NCBI GenBank assembly: GCA_029569255.1
Contig: JAKQUO010000028.1
Coordinates: 1,335-65,334 of the forward strand
Length of the DNA stretch: 64,000 bases
Origin: Acidobacteriota bacterium
GTDB taxonomy: Bacteria > Acidobacteriota > Aminicenantia > Aminicenantales > Saccharicenantaceae
Direction: 5' to 3'
The notes beneath the pieces were generated by a model. It was not told where the DNA came from. It saw nothing but the letters and a program-made list of their open reading frames with translations, and made no database searches. Shown here piece after piece: positions 6,359 to 59,314 of this stretch (within the stretch, counting starts at the first letter, position 1; the number at the start of each line of letters is the position of its first letter). The translations under genes were made by a program, and so were the position numbers.

Positions 6359-7831
6359 ATGATCGACGCGAAACGACCGAAGATCGAGCTTCTCAGCCGC
6401 GAGTTCGTCGACAAGATCGTCGATGAGGGATTCACGCTCCTCGAACGCCACGGCGTCATGGTCGAGAACGCCGAGGCCTTGGATCTCCTGGGCGGGGCCG
6501 GGGCGAGGGTCGACAAGAACGGCCAGCGGGCCTTCCCGGGCCGGGCGCTCGTCGAGGCCTGCCTGGCCGCGGCGCCGGCGTCGATCGAGCTCCGTGACCG
6601 CAGCGGCGCCCGCGCCTTCACCGTGGGCGGCGACGAGGTCCATTTCGACCCGGGCTCGGCGGCCGTGACCATGCTCGACCACGCCGCTCGAGCGGAGCGC
6701 CGGGCGGTGACGGCGGACGTCATCGCCTTCTACAAGCTCGTCGAGACCCTGGAGAACTTCCATTTCCAGAGCACCGGCCTCATCGCCGCGGACGTCCCGG
6801 CCGCCGTCAGCGACGCCTATCGCCTCTACCTGGGCCTCATCCTGTCGGAGAAGCCCTTCGTCACCGGCACCTTCCGGGTCGAGGGCTTCGGGCCGATGAA
6901 GGACATGCTGGCCGCCGTCCGCGGCGGCGAGGACGCCCTCGGGCGGGCCCCCCTGGCCGTCTTCGACGCCTGCCCCTCCCCTCCCCTGAAGTGGAGCGAC
7001 CTGACCGTCCGGAGCCTCATCGACGCGGCCCGGGCGGGCGTCCCCTCCGAGCTCATCCCGATGGGCATGACCGGGGCGACCTCCCCGGTCACGATCGCCG
7101 GGACGCTCGTCCAGCACGTCGCCGAGAACCTCAGCGGCCTGACGATCAGCCAGCTGGCCCGCAAGGGCGCGCCCGTCATCTTCGGCGGCTCGCCGTCGAG
7201 CTTCGACATGCGCAAGGGGACGACCCCGATGGGGGCGATCGAGACGATGATGATCGACGCCGCCTACGCCCAGATCGGCAAGGCCCTCAAGCTCCCGACC
7301 CACGCCTACATGGGCCTGAGCGACTCGAAGGTCAACGACCCGCAGGCCGGCTTCGAGACGGCCCTGGGCGCCGTGCTCGGGGCCCTGGCCGGGGTCAACG
7401 TCATCTCCGGGCCGGGCATGCTCGATTTCGAGAGCTGCCAGAGCTTGGAGAAGCTGGTCATAGACGACGGGATCTGCGCCATGGCCTACCGGCTGCTCGG
7501 GGGCATCGCCCAGCGCGACGAGCCCGTCGCCCTGGGCGTGTTCGAGGGCTTCACGGCCGGCATGTCGTTCCTGTCCCACCCGCACACGCGGCAGTGGTAC
7601 CGGAAGGAGCATCTGGGCGCCGGCCTCGCCGACCGGGACCCCTACGACGCCTGGGTCGCCGCCGGCCGGACCTCCATCGTCGACAAGGCCCACGCCGACG
7701 TCGCCCGCCGCCTCGAGAAATACGCCGCGCCGCCCCTCGATCCGGCCGTCCGCAAGGAGCTCGACCGGATCATGGGGGCCTACGCGAAGTCGGCGGGCCT
7801 CGGCGCGCTGCCTCTTCCCAAGGGCTTCTAG
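6359..7831 (+). CDS. MttB-superfamily methyltransferase (trimethylamine methyltransferase family), non-pyrrolysine member
   Basis: 490 aa, uninterrupted (no in-frame TAG). The length and many conserved blocks match the MttB/MtgB family (TIM barrel). Substrate unknown. Confidence 0.85.
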   Translation: MIDAKRPKIELLSREFVDKIVDEGFTLLERHGVMVENAEALDLLGGAGARVDKNGQRAFPGRALVEACLAAAPASIELRDRSGARAFTVGGDEVHFDPGSAAVTMLDHAARAERRAVTADVIAFYKLVETLENFHFQSTGLIAADVPAAVSDAYRLYLGLILSEKPFVTGTFRVEGFGPMKDMLAAVRGGEDALGRAPLAVFDACPSPPLKWSDLTVRSLIDAARAGVPSELIPMGMTGATSPVTIAGTLVQHVAENLSGLTISQLARKGAPVIFGGSPSSFDMRKGTTPMGAIETMMIDAAYAQIGKALKLPTHAYMGLSDSKVNDPQAGFETALGAVLGALAGVNVISGPGMLDFESCQSLEKLVIDDGICAMAYRLLGGIAQRDEPVALGVFEGFTAGMSFLSHPHTRQWYRKEHLGAGLADRDPYDAWVAAGRTSIVDKAHADVARRLEKYAAPPLDPAVRKELDRIMGAYAKSAGLGALPLPKGF

Positions 7832-7985
7832 CCTGAATCGTTCGCCAATAGGACATTTTCGCTCTGCGGGCGAACCGTTCCCGGCCCCATCTGCTTCGTT
7901 CCCGGGGATTCGCAGCACTCGCGAGTACGGCTTCACCCCTCGGGCCTCGCATCCGAGGGCCGCCTCGATTCGTGAATAACCCGGG
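7832..7985. repeat. Dispersed intergenic repeat, copy A (~150 bp)
   Basis: Aligns to the reverse complement of 33935..34100 (for example ggccctcggatgcgaggcccgaggggtgaagc is identical in both). Its 5' 60 nt also match 14771..14829. Contains an internal hairpin: CCCTCGG, a 9-nt loop, then CCGAGGG. Confidence 0.7.
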
Positions 7986-8004
7986 CTAGCGCGATTCGGC
8001 CCGG

Positions 8005-9405
8005 CTAGTCCAGGTCCCAGACTTCGAGGTACTCGGGCACCTCGACCGTCCAGCGGCGCTCCCGCCGGACCCTCTCCGCGAAATCGGCGGCCACGTCCGC
8101 GTCGCCGTGGGTGACGAACAGCCGCCGGGGCGGGTTGCGGAAGCCGTCGAGCCAGCGGCCCAGGCCCCCGCGGTCGGCGTGGGCCGAGAAGCCGTTGATC
8201 TTCGTCACCCGGGCCCGGACCGGCATGGTCCGGCCGAGGAGACGGACTTCCGGCGCGCCTTCGAGGATCTGCCGGCCGAGCGTGTCCCGGGCCTGGTAGC
8301 CGACGAACAGGACGGTCGACTCCGGCCGGGCGATGTTCTGGGCCAGGTGGTGCTTGATCCGGCCGCCGGTGACCATGCCCGATCCGGCCATGATGACGGC
8401 CGGCCCGGCGGCCGTGTTGACGGCCTTCGATTCCTCGGGCGTCCGGACGATGGTCAGGCCGGGGAAGCGGAAGGGGTTCCGCCCCGAGGCGAAGAGGGCC
8501 CGGGTCTCCCCGTCGAAGTACTCGTCGTGGCGCTCGAAGGCCTCGGTCACTTCCCGGGCCATGGGGCTGTCGAGATAGACCGGCACGGGCGGGATGGCCC
8601 GGGCGTGGACGAGCTTGCTCAGGTGCCACATCAGGTCCTGGGCCCGCTCGATGGCGAAGGTCGGGATGACGACGTTGCCGCCCGCGGCGGCCGTCTCCCG
8701 GATGACCCGGCCGAGCAGGTCGCCGACCCGGCCGGGGTCCTCGTGGTCCCGGTCGCCGTAGGTCGATTCCATGACGACGTAGTCGGCGCCTCCGACGAGC
8801 GAGGGGTCGCGGACGAAGGGCATGTCCCACTGGCCGATGTCGCCCGAGAAGACGAGGGTCCGGGCCGCGCCGTTCTCCCGCACCGTCAGCTCGACCATGG
8901 CCGAGCCGAGGATGTGGCCGGCGTCGAGGAAGCGGACCGAGACGTTGTCGCCGAGCCGGAGCGGCGCGTCGTAATCGATGTCCTCGACGAGAGGCAAGGC
9001 CCGGCGGACGTCCTCGACCTTGTAGAGGGGGACGACCGGGCGCGGCGGCACGCGGCCCTCCTTCAGGTGCCGCTTCTTCTTGAAGGCCGCGTCCTCCTCC
9101 TGGATCTCGGCGGCGTCCAGGAGGGCGATCGACAGGATGTCGGCCGTCGCCGCGGTGGCCAGGATCGTGCCCGCGAAGCCGTCGCGGACGACCTTGGGGA
9201 TGAGGCCCGAGTGGTCGAGGTGGGCGTGGGTGAGAACGATGTAATCGAGCTTGTCCGGCCGGACCGGAAGCGGGTCCCAGTTCCGCCCGAGGAAGGCCCG
9301 TTCCTGATAGAGACCGCAGTCGACCAGGATCTTCAGGCCGCCCGCGTCGACGGCGTAGCACGACCCCGTCACCTGCCGCGCCGCGCCGAGGAAGGCCAGT
9401 TTCAT
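8005..9405 (-). CDS. MBL-fold metallo-hydrolase of the beta-CASP / RNA-metabolising type
   Basis: Real start MKLAFLGAARQVTGSCY at complement 9403..9405 (466 aa). The ORF in the track carries a 230-codon spurious N-terminal extension. HxHxDH motif (THAHLDHSG) and beta-CASP C-terminal region present. Confidence 0.8.
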   Translation of the reverse strand: MKLAFLGAARQVTGSCYAVDAGGLKILVDCGLYQERAFLGRNWDPLPVRPDKLDYIVLTHAHLDHSGLIPKVVRDGFAGTILATAATADILSIALLDAAEIQEEDAAFKKKRHLKEGRVPPRPVVPLYKVEDVRRALPLVEDIDYDAPLRLGDNVSVRFLDAGHILGSAMVELTVRENGAARTLVFSGDIGQWDMPFVRDPSLVGGADYVVMESTYGDRDHEDPGRVGDLLGRVIRETAAAGGNVVIPTFAIERAQDLMWHLSKLVHARAIPPVPVYLDSPMAREVTEAFERHDEYFDGETRALFASGRNPFRFPGLTIVRTPEESKAVNTAAGPAVIMAGSGMVTGGRIKHHLAQNIARPESTVLFVGYQARDTLGRQILEGAPEVRLLGRTMPVRARVTKINGFSAHADRGGLGRWLDGFRNPPRRLFVTHGDADVAADFAERVRRERRWTVEVPEYLEVWDLD

Positions 9406-14735: not shown

Positions 14736-14766
14736 CGGGACATGTGCCGCCCCGGCACGTGTCCCG
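14736..14766. promoter_or_regulatory. 14-3-14 inverted repeat CGGGACATGTGCCG ccc CGGCACGTGTCCCG (1 mismatch); candidate operator in a divergent promoter region
   Basis: Between the NUDIX gene (-) and glgA (+). The 3-nt spacer is too short for a stable RNA loop, so a dimeric DNA-binding site is the likelier reading. Confidence 0.35.
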
Positions 14767-14770
14767 CAGG

Positions 14771-14829
14771 CCTGAATTCGGGCGTTCTCACCCTCCGGGC
14801 GAACCGATCCGGCCCCATCCGCTTCGGGG
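14771..14829. repeat. Dispersed intergenic repeat, truncated copy B
   Basis: cctgaattcgggcgttctcaccctccgggcgaaccgatccggccccatccgcttcgggg matches the first ~76 nt of copy A and the reverse complement of the 3' part of copy C. Confidence 0.6.
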
Positions 14830-14842
14830 ACGGCGGTGATTG

Positions 14843-14851
14843 TGCTAGAAT
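14843..14851 (+). promoter_or_regulatory. Extended -10 promoter TGcTAGAAT, 9 nt before the glgA ATG (leaderless-type)
   Basis: gattgTGcTAGAATgacgggaccATG. The gattgtgcTA context recurs upstream of the M20 peptidase (30671) and the M16 operon (44822). Confidence 0.45.
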
Positions 14852-23815: not shown

Positions 23816-23833
23816 CCCGGCTCCTCGGGGCCC

Positions 23834-33038: not shown

Positions 33039-33934
33039 TCAAGATCCTCATCGCCGACGGCATGGACAAGGCGGCCCTGGACCAGCTCAAGGCCGTTCCG
33101 GGTTTCGAGGTCACCGTCAACAAGGGCATGAGCGAGGCCGACCTCGTCGCCGCGGCGCCGGGCCTGAGCGCCATCGTCGTCCGCAGCGCCTCCAAGATCA
33201 CCCGCCCGGTCCTCGAGGCCGGGAAGGACCTCAAGGTTCTGGTCCGGGCCGGCATCGGCCTCGACAACATCGACCGGGCCGCGGCCAAGGAGAAAGGCGT
33301 CTTCGTGGCCAACACCCCGGCCGCGACCTCCATCACCGTGGCCGAGCACACCTTCGGGCTCATGCTGGGCGCGGTCCGCAACCACTGGAAGGCCATCCTG
33401 ACGATGAAGGCCCACAAGTGGGAGAAGAAGGCCCTCGAGGGGACGGAGCTCTACGGCAAGACCCTCGGCATCATCGGCTTCGGCCGGATCGGCCAGGAGG
33501 TCGCCAAGAGGGCCCTGGCCTTCGGCATGACCGTCGTCGCCTTCGACATCGTGCCCATCAAGACGGACCTCCCCGTGAGGCAGGTCCCGCTCGACGAGCT
33601 CCTGCCGGCCGCGGACCTCATCACCCTGCACGTCCCCAAGCAGGCCAAGCCGGTCCTGGGCGAGGCGGAGTTCGGCAAGATGAAGAACGGGGTCATCGTC
33701 GTCAACGTGGCCCGAGGCGGCGTCGTCGACGAGAAGGCCCTGCTCGCGGCCCTGAACTCCGGCCGGGTCCGGGCGGCGGCGCTCGACGTCTTCGACAAAG
33801 AGCCGCCCGAGGACTTCTCCCTGGTCGACCACCCCAACGTCATCCCCATCCCCCACCTGGGGGCGGCGGCGGCGGAGGGGCAGCAACGGGCCGGCCTCGA
33901 GGTCGTCCGCATCCTGAAGGAGAAGCTGGCCTAA
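33035..33934 (+). CDS. serA: D-3-phosphoglycerate dehydrogenase (short form, no ACT domain)
   Basis: GKTLGIIGFGRIGQEVAKRA NAD-binding motif. D-isomer 2-hydroxyacid dehydrogenase catalytic R/E/H residues. 299 aa. Confidence 0.8.
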   Translation: MIKILIADGMDKAALDQLKAVPGFEVTVNKGMSEADLVAAAPGLSAIVVRSASKITRPVLEAGKDLKVLVRAGIGLDNIDRAAAKEKGVFVANTPAATSITVAEHTFGLMLGAVRNHWKAILTMKAHKWEKKALEGTELYGKTLGIIGFGRIGQEVAKRALAFGMTVVAFDIVPIKTDLPVRQVPLDELLPAADLITLHVPKQAKPVLGEAEFGKMKNGVIVVNVARGGVVDEKALLAALNSGRVRAAALDVFDKEPPEDFSLVDHPNVIPIPHLGAAAAEGQQRAGLEVVRILKEKLA

Positions 33935-34100
33935 CCTGGATTATTCGCGGATCGGGACGGCCCTCGGATGCGAGGCCCGAGGGGTGAAGCTGTCCTCTTC
34001 GGCACTGCGAACCCCCGGGAACGAAGCGGATGGGGGCCGGATCGGTTCGCCCGGAGGGTGAAAACGCCCGACGGGGGGCCGGGCATGTCCGGCCGCCGGG
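33935..34100. repeat. Dispersed intergenic repeat, copy C (inverted relative to copy A)
   Basis: Starts right after the serA stop. Its reverse complement aligns with 7856..7985 over ~130 nt with few substitutions. Carries the same CCCTCGG...CCGAGGG hairpin and a GGCCGGGCATGTCCGGCC near-palindrome. Confidence 0.7.
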
Positions 34101-34137
34101 GGGCGCGAGCGCCTGCCTATGTCTATTTGGCCCGTTC

Positions 34138-34146
34138 TGCTAAAAT
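34138..34146 (+). promoter_or_regulatory. Extended -10 promoter TGcTAAAAT, ending 7 nt before the ATG (leaderless mRNA predicted)
   Basis: cTGcTAAAATagcccccATG. The same gcTAAAATag-N6-ATG arrangement occurs at 54053..54072. Confidence 0.45.
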
Positions 34147-34153
34147 AGCCCCC

Positions 34154-57995: not shown

Positions 57996-58472
57996 CTAGG
58001 CCTTCTTGAGCTTGTCCTTCTCGATGAGCAGCATGCCCTGGTAGGAAACGTAGTTCAGGAGGATCATGACCCGCTCGTTCGGGCCGAGCTCCTTGCGGAA
58101 GATCCCCTTGAGGCCCTTGAGCGGCCCCTCGACGACCTCGATCTCGTCCCCGGCGACCGGCTCCTCCCCGTACTTCTCGAAAACGACGAGCCCGTCCTTT
58201 TCCCGGGCCTTGATGCCGAGGATGACCTCTTCCGGGACCGGGGTCGGGCCGGCGTCGTTGCCGACGACGCGCTTGACGCCGCGGGTGTATTTGACCATCT
58301 GGTACTGCTCGGGATATTCGAAGAGAAGGAAAGCGTAGCCGGGAAAGAAGGGCCCGACCCGCTTCTCGCGGACGTACTTCGGGCAGTAGATGGTGAACCC
58401 GCCCTCGGTGAAGAGGCGTTCGACCTGGCCCTCCTTCTTCGGCCTGGTGTTGACGACGTACCAGCGCGGCAT
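57996..58472 (-). CDS. RfaH-like NusG-family transcription antiterminator (NGN plus KOW domains)
   Basis: 158 aa. MPRWYVVNTRPKKEGQVERL...PFFPGYAFLLFEY and the C-terminal GDEIEVVEGPLKGLKGIFRK...MLLIEKD are collinear with E. coli RfaH as recalled. Start at complement 58470..58472, overlapping the upstream stop (TGATG). Confidence 0.75.
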   Translation of the reverse strand: MPRWYVVNTRPKKEGQVERLFTEGGFTIYCPKYVREKRVGPFFPGYAFLLFEYPEQYQMVKYTRGVKRVVGNDAGPTPVPEEVILGIKAREKDGLVVFEKYGEEPVAGDEIEVVEGPLKGLKGIFRKELGPNERVMILLNYVSYQGMLLIEKDKLKKA

Positions 58473-59314
58473 CAGCGGGCCTTGCGTTCCGGGTCGGCGA
58501 GCCCCATCCGGCCGTAGACCTCGGGCCGCCGGTCCTCGAGGAAATGGCGGGCGGCGTGCGAGGCCCGGTTCCGCCGGAGATCGCAGTCGGCGAAGAGGAT
58601 GTGGTCCTCGCCTCGCGGGGCCCGGGCGATGACCCGCCCGTCCGGATCGACCACGTAGGACTCCCCGGCGAACTCCAGCGCGTCCTCGCGCCCGACCCGG
58701 TTCGCCAGGGCGGCGAAGTAGCCGTTCTGGAAGGCGGCCACCTGGAGCTCGGCCTCGAAAATGCCCTCGGTCCACTCCCCGACCGCCCCGGCCTGGGGCA
58801 CGACGACGAGCTCGGCCCCGGCCAGCCGCAGCCCTCTCATGTATTCGGGAAAATGGCGGTCGTAGCATATGGCGACGCCGATCCGGCCGGCGGCCGTGTC
58901 GAAGACGAAGCTCTCCCGGTCGCCCGGGGCGTAGTAGCCGCGTTCGTGGAAGCCGGGGCCCTCCATGATGTGGACCATGCGCGTGACGCCGAGGAGGCGG
59001 CCGTCGGCGTCGATGACCGGCGAGGAATCGAAGGTCCTCTCCCCGTCCCGCTCGAACAGGTTCAGGACGGCCACCGTGCCGGTCTCGCGGGCCAGGGCGC
59101 GGAAGAGGTCGGTCGTCGGGCCCGGGACGGGCTCGGCCAGACCGGGGCTCGAGGCGGTCGCGGGGGATCGCGGATAGAACGGGGTGAAGGCCAGTTCGGC
59201 GAAGGCGACGAGCTTCGCCCCGGCCCGGGCGGCCTCGAGGAAGGCGCGCTTGCCCCGCTCCAGGTTCTCGGCCGGTTCGCCGGTCGCGCGCTGCTGGACG
59301 AGGGCGATCTTCAA
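58472..59314 (-). CDS. Carbon-nitrogen hydrolase (nitrilase-superfamily) protein
   Basis: LKIALVQQRA...GRIGVAICYDRHFPE (catalytic Cys). TTG start overlapping the pepP stop as TTGA. The 754-aa track ORF is mostly artefact. Confidence 0.7.
   Translation of the reverse strand: MKIALVQQRATGEPAENLERGKRAFLEAARAGAKLVAFAELAFTPFYPRSPATASSPGLAEPVPGPTTDLFRALARETGTVAVLNLFERDGERTFDSSPVIDADGRLLGVTRMVHIMEGPGFHERGYYAPGDRESFVFDTAAGRIGVAICYDRHFPEYMRGLRLAGAELVVVPQAGAVGEWTEGIFEAELQVAAFQNGYFAALANRVGREDALEFAGESYVVDPDGRVIARAPRGEDHILFADCDLRRNRASHAARHFLEDRRPEVYGRMGLADPERKAR

What the first reader, a model, noticed from the sequence alone, without database searches (positions are those of the whole stretch)
7832..7985. 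Dispersed ~130-150 bp intergenic repeat family (3 copies, mixed orientation, one truncated)
Region 7856..7985 (between convergent genes) aligns over ~130 nt with the reverse complement of 33935..34100 (immediately after serA). A 59-nt truncated copy lies at 14771..14829 in a divergent promoter region. Shared blocks include GGGCGAACCG(A/T)TCCGGCCCCAT(C/T)(C/T)GCTTCG and an internal hairpin CCCTCGG, 9-nt loop, CCGAGGG. Because of the element, two spurious ORFs translate to near-identical peptides (MRGPRGEAVL..ANPRERS.WG..RFARR): 7770..7952 (-) and the N-terminal 62 codons of the 33968 ORF. All copies are intergenic and lie next to promoter-like (CCGGGACATG-type) palindromes. It could be a MITE/REP-like mobile element, a small-RNA gene family, or a transcription terminator or insulator module.
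Basis: seen in the sequence. Interest (0 to 1): 0.5.

Follow-up and report, generated by a model that had tools for sequence, protein, structure and literature searches.

The report
Decayed copies of a small transposon
The three repeats are worn-down copies of a roughly 190-bp non-coding "hitch-hiker" transposon (a MITE) that is scattered through genomes of the uncultured bacterial group Aminicenantes and tends to land on stop codons; it is an undescribed family of an ordinary, well-known kind of element.

Summary
Copy A (7828-7989) and copy B (33931-~34075) are 82-83% identical over about 135 nt in opposite orientation. Copy C (14770-14829) is a fragment. The same element occurs in at least 5 Aminicenantes MAGs and in 71 metagenome contigs. 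Its canonical form is 180-195 bp. It has terminal inverted repeats (CCTGnATTATTCAC...GTGAATAAGTCAGG) flanked by a 4-bp direct duplication of a YTAR target (CTAG, CTAA or TTAG). Related genomes hold empty sites at both full window copies, and the window is itself empty where relatives are filled (58461-58464). The serA stop codon was hit independently, in the opposite orientation, in another lineage. YTAR contains TAG/TAA, so insertions often sit on stop codons, and the duplication regenerates them (MTTB and serA here). The element therefore passes the structural tests for a MITE, presumably moved in trans by a DDE transposase that makes 4-bp staggered cuts (IS5-, IS701- or IS1380-like). That transposase was not found. 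All three window copies are defective: A has an internal deletion, B has lost its 3' end and C has lost its 5' half. The element has a conserved fold supported by covariation. It shows no Rfam match, no orientation bias and no preservation at orthologous loci, so an RNA function is unproven. It is a new member of a known kind, of modest interest.

The parts
7828..7831 (.). Copy A: target-site duplication CTAG. It lies at the 3' side in element orientation. Bases 7829-7831 (TAG) are the stop codon of the MTTB-family methyltransferase gene 6359-7831(+).
   Evidence: In relatives without the element the MTTB stop lies 0-2 nt from the beta-CASP stop.
7832..7985 (-). Copy A body (154 nt; the element reads 5'->3' on the - strand). 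Both terminal inverted repeats are present: the 5' repeat at 7972-7985 and the 3' repeat at 7832-7845. The core hairpin is intact. The second hairpin (AAAACGCCC-loop-GGGCGTTTTT) is deleted or degenerate.
   Evidence: nhmmer: profile positions 2-151, E 2e-41.
7986..7989 (.). Copy A: second copy of the CTAG target duplication. The beta-CASP RNase gene stop (8005-8007, - strand) lies 15 nt further on.
33931..33934 (.). Copy B: 5' target-site copy CTAA. Bases 33932-33934 (TAA) are the stop codon of the serA-like 2-hydroxyacid dehydrogenase gene.
33935..34075 (+). Copy B body. It holds the 5' terminal inverted repeat (33935-33948), the complete core hairpin, the small hairpin and the 5' arm of hairpin 2. 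It is then truncated, and no 3' inverted repeat or 3' duplication is recognisable.
   Evidence: nhmmer profile positions 2-140, E 8e-42. A weight-matrix scan finds no 3' end. Comparison with empty and filled relatives.
34076..34153 (+). Not part of the element. This is the native serA-nifS spacer: a GC-rich palindrome at 34077-34094, a terminator-like hairpin with T-rich tail at 34101-34128, and a TGCTAAAAT box at 34138-34146, 7 nt before the nifS-like ATG (34154).
   Evidence: The same GTTCTGCTA(G/A)AATAGCCC block and a hairpin with T-run are present in relatives L259 and L258, which lack copy B. Terminator-like hit.
14770..14829 (-). Copy C: a 5'-truncated fragment. It holds the 3' arm of the core, the small hairpin, and a shortened 3' end with an inverted-repeat remnant CCTGAAT at 14770-14776. 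It lies in the divergent NUDIX / glgA promoter region.
   Evidence: nhmmer profile positions 91-146, E 4e-13. Present in all six related contigs.
58461..58464 (-). Empty target site in the window (CTGG on the - strand). The orthologous place in metagenome contig L168 carries a full element flanked by CAGG/CTGG.

Best explanation

Canonical element. It is 180-195 bp long and non-coding. It has 13-14-bp terminal inverted repeats: CCTGnATTATTCAC at the 5' end and GTGAATAAGTCAGG at the 3' end. Internally it folds as a long imperfect core hairpin, a 4-bp mini-hairpin, and a second hairpin AAAACGCCC-[17-31 nt, usually purine-rich, variable loop]-GGGCGTTTTT.

How it moves (inferred). A DDE-type transposase supplied in trans binds the terminal repeats and inserts the element at YTAR tetranucleotides (CTAG > CTAA, TTAG) with a 4-bp staggered cut. 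This leaves a 4-bp direct duplication.

Why it sits on stop codons. In these 60-70% G+C genomes YTAR is rare (about 1 per kb) and largely coincides with TAG/TAA stop codons. Insertions therefore often land on a stop codon, sometimes on the shared CTAG/CTAA of two convergent genes. The duplication regenerates the stop on both sides, which makes the insertion nearly harmless.

What is shown and what is inferred. Shown: the repeats, the duplication, the target, the copy spread, filled versus empty sites, recurrent hits on one site, and decay by deletion. Inferred: the transposase class and mobilisation in trans.

The window copies. Copy A keeps both ends but has lost hairpin 2. Copy B has lost its 3' end. 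Copy C has lost its 5' half. B and C cannot be mobile. All three are most likely neutral relics whose only visible effects are longer intergenic spacers and spurious ORFs.
For: Ends. 43 distinct full-length copies share the same termini, and the terminal motif occurs in the window only at the element ends (3 matches against 0.00 expected).

Duplication. The 4 nt outside the repeats match as direct repeats, not inverted ones. Outer positions match in 24 and 27 of 34 copies as direct repeats, against 13 and 15 of 34 as inverted repeats. Seven exact non-palindromic direct pairs (CTAA/CTAA, TTAG/TTAG, ATAG/ATAG, TCAG/TCAG, TAAG/TAAG) stand against one inverted pair. The flanking 4-mers are CTAG 31, CTAA 15 and TTAG 12 of 111 ends.

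Spread.

The window is from Aminicenantes. It shows about 82% nucleotide synteny with MAG POMEDNA-B01, and homologues of its proteins carry that name.

Filled versus empty sites. At site A, relatives have MTTB and beta-CASP stops overlapping on CTAA (L252) or 2 nt apart (L249-251). At site B, L256 has the serA TAA directly followed by the nifS start, and L259 has only the native spacer. The window is empty at 58461-58464 where L168 is filled with a clean junction, and near 23832 where L138 holds a copy within a longer, rearranged spacer.

Recurrent targeting. L258 carries a fragment at the same serA stop codon in the opposite orientation. L229 and L210 have opposite orientations at one site.

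Stop codons. A real gene's stop lies inside the duplication at 25 of 111 ends, or about 18 of 41 elements, against 14.7% of all YTAR sites. In L150, L149 and L175 both convergent genes end in the two duplication copies.

Decay. Orthologous copies carry different internal deletions (L133, L147, L094, L210), and repeat-only mini-elements of 34-46 nt exist.

Assembly. Two Logan contigs break inside copy A, as expected for a multi-copy repeat.

Literature. A 4-bp CTAG duplication is documented for IS5-family ISKpn26 (PMC8023600), and exactly 4-bp duplications for the IS701 family (PMC2266710).
Against: No autonomous partner was found. No other occurrence of the terminal repeat lies next to a transposase gene in 1.85 Mb of fetched loci, and no long protein shares the element's internal reading frame. 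Mobilisation in trans and the transposase family therefore remain inferred.

The roughly 120-nt interior is unusually well conserved between species (over 90% at most columns), while flanking genes are about 81% identical. A purely selfish, neutrally decaying repeat does not obviously predict this. It needs either a 'only intact copies transpose' filter, horizontal spread, or a function.

The ascertainment pattern forced one 19-nt block to be invariant in the metagenome copies.

Many duplications are imperfect (old copies). The window's copy B has only one recognisable end.
Confidence: 0.9

Rival explanations
1. The element is, or additionally carries, a functional structured RNA. Examples would be a small-RNA gene ending at the GGGCGUUUUU hairpin, or an mRNA 3'-end or stability module. 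On this reading the conserved core is kept by selection on the RNA, and transposition only spreads it.
For: The fold is conserved. 97.4% of cells pair, and 12 pairs show compensatory changes against 4.4+-1.4 in shuffles and 2-5 in slid controls. Variable positions fall in loops. One strand always folds better: -86.5 vs -73.6 kcal/mol in 43 of 43 copies. Departures from Watson-Crick pairing are G.U-type on that strand more often than A.C-type (44 vs 12 cells; 22 vs 11 pairs). The core is more conserved than neighbouring genes.
Against: No Rfam family matches, even at E<=10. Orientation relative to neighbouring genes is random (27 vs 32 gene 3' ends and 24 vs 25 gene 5' ends on the two sides). 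Orthologous copies are not preserved but lose internal segments. All three window copies are truncated or deleted. The copies share ancestry, so the strand asymmetry amounts to about one observation, and 22 vs 11 pairs is only p~0.08. The hairpin-2 loop is inverted in a propagated subfamily. Hairpin structure and compensatory change are also expected for transposon ends and single-stranded DNA intermediates. No promoter is evident.
Confidence: 0.12
2. The element is a portable bidirectional intrinsic terminator, analogous to SPRITE of S. pneumoniae. On this reading it is retained because it supplies transcription termination after the stop codons it lands on.
For: Canonical copies contain AAAAACGCCC...GGGCGTTTTT, which reads as stem plus U-run in both directions. 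Mean stability is -13.3 kcal/mol forward and -12.5 reverse. 59 of 108 scored flanks are gene 3' ends, and many insertions sit exactly on stops. MITEs with terminator-like sequences are described in the literature (PMC10969869).
Against: The loop is 17-31 nt (mean 25), far longer than in typical intrinsic terminators, and the G+C part of the stem is only 5 bp. Window copies A and C lack this hairpin and B is cut after its 5' arm. No terminator-like site is called in copy A. About 45% of flanks are gene 5' ends. At site B the relatives already have their own hairpin with T-run.
Confidence: 0.1
3. The element is a MITE of the IS630/Tc1-mariner type that duplicates only TA inside a CTAG target. 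On this reading the outer C and G belong to the inverted repeats.
For: Most ends read CTAG, and IS630 is known (from my own knowledge, not checked here) to target CTAG and duplicate TA.
Against: Positions 1 and 4 of the flanking tetranucleotide agree as direct repeats (24/34 and 27/34) and not as inverted complements (13/34 and 15/34). CTAA...CTAA and TTAG...TTAG pairs occur repeatedly, while the CTAA...TTAG pairs expected under this model never occur.
Confidence: 0.04
4. The repeats are a local segmental duplication confined to this genome region, or they encode a small protein (the 34-aa MRGPRGEAVL... frame).
For: Three copies lie within 26 kb. A 34-codon frame is open in about two thirds of canonical copies.
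Against: Dozens of unrelated insertion sites occur in many genomes. The frame is shifted in about 9 of 42 copies and in both window copies. Changes are non-synonymous and sit in hairpin loops, and there is no ribosome-binding site. The protein database holds only 13 tiny 'hypothetical' ORFs of 43-74 aa with no Pfam domain.
Confidence: 0.02

Closest known systems
MITEs derived from DDE insertion sequences that make 4-bp target duplications (IS5-group elements such as ISKpn26 with a CTAG duplication; the IS701 family; the IS1380 family)
   Same: It is small and non-coding, has terminal inverted repeats, and makes a 4-bp duplication of a CTAG-like (YTAR) target. Copies are dispersed and polymorphic, and deletion derivatives keep both ends.
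   Different: No parent IS with matching ends was found, so the family cannot be assigned. The ends (CCTG...) do not match the IS701 end consensus quoted in PMC2266710. From memory they do not match the GG-type ends of IS5 either. The host phylum (Aminicenantes) has no described MITE (0 papers).
Correia elements (CREE/NEMIS) of Neisseria
   Same: Both are elements of about 100-200 bp with terminal inverted repeats. Both are hundreds-of-copies-scale intergenic repeats that fold into long hairpins and sit next to gene ends.
   Different: From my own knowledge, Correia elements duplicate TA, carry IHF sites and promoter parts, and are cut by RNase III. None of this was seen or tested here. There is no sequence similarity, and the target here is a 4-bp YTAR.
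SPRITE / BOX / RUP repeats of Streptococcus pneumoniae
   Same: SPRITE is a dispersed repeat with a Rho-independent-terminator-like hairpin (PMC10969869). The canonical element here also carries a terminator-like hairpin. Nesting of one repeat in another occurs in both (L012 and L200 here).
   Different: The hairpin here has a 17-31-nt loop and is missing from the window copies. There is no sequence similarity. Mobility signatures (terminal repeats plus duplication plus empty sites) are explicit here.
REP/BIME elements with RAYT transposases
   Same: Both are GC-rich palindromic intergenic repeats found after gene ends.
   Different: REPs are 20-40 nt, have no terminal inverted repeats of this kind and no target duplication. 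The element here is about 190 nt and has both.

Membership tests
MITE (non-autonomous DNA transposon) | Short (<~500 bp) and without coding capacity | tested here: met
   180-195 bp. The internal 34-codon frame is frameshifted in about 9 of 42 copies and matches no real protein.
MITE (non-autonomous DNA transposon) | Terminal inverted repeats | tested here: met
   CCTGnATTATTCAC / GTGAATAAGTCAGG in 43 distinct full-length copies. The terminal helix pairs in 96% of cells, with 4 co-varying positions. Copy A has both ends.
MITE (non-autonomous DNA transposon) | Target-site duplication flanking the repeats | tested here: met
   4-bp direct repeats of consensus YTAR. The direct-repeat model beats the inverted-repeat model. 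A single copy of the 4-mer is present at the empty site 58461-58464.
MITE (non-autonomous DNA transposon) | Many dispersed copies at unrelated sites | tested here: met
   72 distinct sites among the fetched loci. There are 5 copies or fragments in about 100 kb of unbiased sequence: the window plus L247-L259.
MITE (non-autonomous DNA transposon) | Insertion polymorphism: filled and empty orthologous sites | tested here: met
   Sites A and B are empty in relatives. The window is empty where L168 and L138 are filled. Independent insertions in opposite orientation at one site.
MITE (non-autonomous DNA transposon) | A cognate autonomous element with the same ends that supplies the transposase | tested here: inconclusive
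   None was found in 1.85 Mb of loci or by peptide search.
IS5-group-derived element | 4-bp duplication at CTAG/YTAR | tested here: met
   Literature example ISKpn26 (PMC8023600). This feature is not exclusive: IS701 also gives exactly 4 bp (PMC2266710).
IS5-group-derived element | Ends similar to those of an IS5-family member encoding a DDE transposase | not testable with these tools
   No ISfinder library is available and no parent was found.
IS630/Tc1-mariner-derived MITE | 2-bp TA duplication | tested here: not met
   The outer two positions of the tetranucleotide behave as a direct duplication.
REP/BIME | 20-40-nt imperfect palindrome, no duplication, RAYT association | tested here: not met
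   The element is about 190 nt with terminal repeats and a duplication.
Any Rfam RNA family | Covariance-model match | tested here: not met
   No hit at the gathering threshold in the window. None at E<=10 on copy A. None at E<=1 on three canonical copies.
Intrinsic-terminator module (SPRITE-like) | Stable GC-rich stem, short loop, U-run, with termination shown | tested here: inconclusive
   Canonical copies have a 9-11-bp stem with a 17-31-nt loop, a U-run on both strands and -13 kcal/mol. Window copies A and C lack it and B is truncated within it. Termination itself cannot be tested here.

The most novel reading that the evidence does not exclude
The element may be more than a selfish MITE. 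Its roughly 120-nt core would be a structured RNA kept by selection on one strand (compensatory changes, an excess of G.U-type substitutions, conservation above that of neighbouring genes). Together with the symmetric terminator-like hairpin and the out-reading ATG in its 3' end, it would form a mobile 'gene-end/gene-start cassette'. That cassette would home to stop codons, regenerate them, and supply 3'-end formation or a new start codon to neighbouring genes across the phylum. One case was seen: in L168 the element supplies MNKSGWYV... to a gene that in the window begins MPRWYV....
Probability: 0.12. Interest if true: 0.55.

Novelty: new member of a known kind. Interest (0 to 1): 0.3.

Why it matters
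Annotation. These copies create spurious ORFs, such as the 62 extra N-terminal codons on the nifS-like gene and the 60-codon ORF at 7770-7952. They also break short-read assemblies.

Biology. This is the first described transposable repeat family in Aminicenantes, a ubiquitous uncultured lineage. It gives a clean example of how target choice alone (YTAR in a GC-rich genome) can steer a transposon onto stop codons, where the duplication restores the stop and the insertion costs little.

Practical use. Presence/absence of copies differs completely between relatives of about 81% nucleotide identity, so the family could serve as a strain marker.

None of this changes what is known about how MITEs work.

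Tried and rejected
Rfam. Gathering threshold on the whole window, E<=10 on copy A and E<=1 on three canonical copies all gave nothing relevant.

First genome-collection pattern (GGGCGAACCGNTCCNGNCCC).

Metagenome 19-mer. 49 of 120 loci were chance hits inside coding DNA.

Viral collection. Two hits, neither an element, so there is no sign of phage carriage.

Search for an autonomous partner. Scanning all loci for further terminal repeats found only mini-elements.

Treating the internal frame as a transposase remnant. Only tiny ORFs were found.

Weight-matrix search for a 3' end of copy B. Nothing was found. Comparison with relatives then showed that the sequence beyond about 34075 is native spacer.

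Small-protein reading. Rejected.

TA-duplication (IS630) model. Rejected.

Orientation bias test. None was found. The ORF heuristic used is crude: it mis-called the flanks of copy B.

Literature. No paper links Aminicenantes and MITEs, and 'YTAR' together with 'IS5 family' returned nothing.

Possible remnant in the L247 spacer at site A. It is statistically above shuffles, but nhmmer is silent, so it is left as a lead.

Full report
1. THE OBSERVATION

Copy A (7851-7989, + strand) matches the reverse complement of B (33931-34069) at 82-83% over 134-139 nt (blastn E 2e-35; inverted pair I1). Copy C (14778-14826) matches B at 96% over 50 nt (E 2e-17). A profile built later from 42 family members finds these three places and nothing else below E=1 in the window. 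The two look-alike peptides exist and are by-products of the repeat.

2. THE SAME SEQUENCE ELSEWHERE

An exact-protein look-up of glgA returned six near-identical metagenomic contigs. Two Logan contigs end inside copy A, which is what assemblers do at multi-copy repeats.

A scan of species-representative genomes was mostly noise. It did yield true homologues in 8 loci from at least 5 MAGs, three of them labelled Candidatus Aminicenantes. One 8-kb locus holds three copies.

A 19-mer scan of metagenome contigs gave 120 loci. 71 of them hold the element and the other 49 are chance matches in coding DNA.

The window itself is from Aminicenantes. It is syntenic at about 82% nucleotide identity with MAG POMEDNA-B01, and homologues of its MTTB and NifS proteins carry that name.

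3. ANATOMY

I read the element on the strand on which B is '+'. Forty-three distinct full-length copies are 180-195 nt long. They share this layout:
- a 4-nt flank;
- CCTGnATTATTCAC;
- a core of about 100 nt that folds as a long imperfect hairpin;
- a mini-hairpin CCC-GGAG-GGG;
- a second hairpin AAAACGCCC-[loop]-GGGCGTTTTT;
- ATGAATAAGTCAGG;
- a 4-nt flank.

The first and last 13-14 nt are inverted repeats of each other.

The outer 4-mers are direct repeats, not part of the inverted repeat. Their outer positions agree in 24 and 27 of 34 copies as direct repeats, against 13 and 15 of 34 as inverted repeats. Non-palindromic pairs such as CTAA/CTAA, TTAG/TTAG, ATAG/ATAG and TCAG/TCAG occur 7 times, against one inverted pair. 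The 4-mers are CTAG (31), CTAA (15) and TTAG (12) of 111 ends, giving a consensus of YTAR. This is a 4-bp target-site duplication. A TA-only (IS630-type) duplication is excluded by the same counts.

Deletion derivatives that keep both ends exist, down to 34-46-nt elements made of little more than the two terminal repeats.

4. MOBILITY

Site A. Relatives with the same MTTB -> <- beta-CASP arrangement differ at the junction:
- in L252 the two stop codons overlap on one CTAA;
- in L249-251 the stops are 2 nt apart;
- L247/248 have a 66-nt spacer holding a 41-nt stretch that resembles the element. Its score of 38 is above all 2000 shuffles and all 1966 random window 66-mers, but nhmmer finds nothing there;
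- the window has CTAG, then the 154-nt element, then CTAG.

Site B:
- in L256 the serA TAA is followed directly by the nifS start;
- L259 has only a 78-nt native spacer, made of a hairpin with T-run and a TGCTAGAAT box;
- L258 has a 75-nt 3' fragment of the element in the opposite orientation, right after the same stop codon (nhmmer E 5e-7).

This comparison also shows that window sequence beyond about 34075 is native spacer. Copy B is therefore 3'-truncated.

Sites where the window is empty. The window has a single CTGG at 58461-58464 where L168 has CAGG-element-CTGG, with flanks 81-83% identical. It has nothing near 23832 where the 81%-identical syntenic contig L138 has a copy, although that spacer is 310 nt in L138 against 18 nt here, so the junction is not clean. 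L229 and L210 hold the element in opposite orientations at one orthologous site.

The insertion pattern therefore differs completely between relatives of about 81% identity.

5. STOP CODONS

YTAR contains TAG or TAA and is rare in these genomes (552 sites in 512 kb). The stop of a real gene (at least 100 codons, GC3 at least 0.75) lies inside the duplication at 25 of 111 ends, or about 18 of 41 elements. Of all YTAR sites, 14.7% serve as such stops. In L150, L149 and L175 both convergent neighbours end in the two copies of the duplication. That is the filled counterpart of the overlapping-stop arrangement seen empty in L252.

In the window, the MTTB stop (7829-7831) and the serA stop (33932-33934) lie in the duplications.

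Part of this enrichment must come from selection removing insertions inside genes. The rest follows from target choice alone.

6. STRUCTURE, AND WHETHER IT MEANS AN RNA

The fold is well kept. 97.4% of cells pair. Twelve pairs show compensatory change, against 4.4+-1.4 in shuffles and 2-5 in slid controls. Variable positions sit in loops.

The reading strand folds better in all 43 copies (-86.5 vs -73.6 kcal/mol). Departures from Watson-Crick pairing are G.U-type more often than A.C-type (44 vs 12 cells; 22 vs 11 pairs).

These points hint at constraint on one strand, but several things weigh against an RNA function:
- the copies share ancestry, so the asymmetry amounts to about one observation;
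- 22 vs 11 pairs is weak (p~0.08);
- orientation relative to genes is random;
- orthologous copies lose different internal pieces (L133, L147, L094, L210);
- the hairpin-2 loop is inverted in a propagated subfamily;
- Rfam has no match.

Locus-specific deletions, combined with a uniform full-length consensus across many sites, fit a filter in which only intact copies are mobilised.

Hairpin 2 looks like a bidirectional terminator. Its loop, however, is 17-31 nt and the hairpin averages only -13 kcal/mol. Copies A and C lack it, and B is cut off just after its 5' arm.

7. THE WINDOW COPIES
- Copy A: 7832-7985 on the - strand, flanked by CTAG on both sides. Both ends are present and hairpin 2 is lost.
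- Copy B: 33935 to about 34075 on the + strand, after CTAA. The 3' end is lost.
- Copy C: 14770-14829 on the - strand. Only the 3' half remains.

B and C cannot transpose, and A might. I see no evidence that any of the three has a role. The promoter-like TGCTAnAAT boxes before nifS and glgA are native, because they are conserved in relatives that lack the element.

8. COMPARISON AND NOVELTY

The element meets every structural criterion of a MITE except an identified autonomous partner. A 4-bp CTAG duplication is known for IS5-family ISKpn26 (PMC8023600), and exactly 4-bp duplications for the IS701 family (PMC2266710). From my own knowledge, IS1380 also gives 4-5 bp. The family therefore cannot be assigned.

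Functionally it resembles Correia, ERIC, RUP and SPRITE-type repeats reviewed in PMC10969869. No paper links Aminicenantes with MITEs.

VERDICT

This is a new member of a known kind. It is solidly a MITE family (confidence 0.9) of modest interest (0.3). A low-probability (about 0.12) but more interesting possibility remains: that the conserved core acts as an RNA or as a gene-end cassette.

Noticed in passing
L168 622-812 vs window 58430-58500 (- strand): In L168 the element sits inside the first codons of a gene that in the window begins MPRWYVVNT. The element's terminal ATGAATAAGTCAGG plus the CTGG duplication gives a new in-frame start, MNKSGWYVINT. The 3' inverted repeat can therefore act as a portable start codon. 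With a canonical CTAG/CTAA target the same frame ends at once (MNKSG*).
   Followed up: partly
window 34138-34146 and 14843-14851; L258, L259: TGCTAAAAT and TGCTAGAAT (extended -10-like boxes) lie only 7-9 nt upstream of the start codons of the nifS-like and glgA genes. The nifS box is conserved in relatives L258 and L259. This suggests very short or absent leaders in this lineage.
   Followed up: no
In relatives they are followed by T-runs (terminator-like). GGGACAYG occurs 12 times in the window against 5.7 expected, but only 14736-14766 forms a palindrome.
   Followed up: partly
L012 5005-5110 (= L171, L222) and L200 ~990-1085; ortholog L129: In two distinct insertion sites the apex of the element's core hairpin is replaced by the same ~105-nt sequence, made of interleaved GGGACATG/GGGACACG palindromes. 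L129, orthologous to the L200 site (flanks 90-94% identical), has the normal apex. This means either a second small mobile element that nests in the MITE, or gene conversion between copies.
   Followed up: partly
L229 7755-7940 vs L210 2319-2438; window 33935 vs L258 1883-1957: The same orthologous target site carries the element in opposite orientations in different lineages. This indicates either repeated independent insertion into a hot spot or inversion between the terminal repeats.
   Followed up: partly
L252 4467-4470: Convergent MTTB and beta-CASP RNase genes overlap by 4 nt, sharing one CTAA as both stop codons (TAA forward, TAG reverse). This compact arrangement is exactly the element's preferred target.
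   Followed up: yes
L247 4474-4539 (PPR_0101 MAG): The 66-nt MTTB/beta-CASP spacer is bounded by ATTTGGCCC...GGGCCAAAT and contains a 41-nt stretch about 80% identical to the element core. The motif ATTTGGCCCG also occurs at window 34124-34133, just after copy B. It may be a heavily decayed copy or a GC-adapted variant.
   Followed up: partly
alignment A2 columns 146-176 (L220, L165, L203, L128): The hairpin-2 loop is purine-rich (73-96%) in 35 of 40 copies. It is pyrimidine-rich, apparently inverted, in a subfamily found at four or more sites. Otherwise the loop is the only hypervariable part of the element.
   Followed up: no
L001 and L004, position 1: Logan assemblies of two samples break at the same base inside copy A. 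This is a practical sign that the element fragments short-read assemblies of this lineage.
   Followed up: no
window 33968-34153: The longest ORF for the nifS-like cysteine desulfurase starts inside the element and adds 62 spurious codons. The real start is 34154 (MIYLDHNAT), as in all homologues of 383-384 aa.
   Followed up: yes
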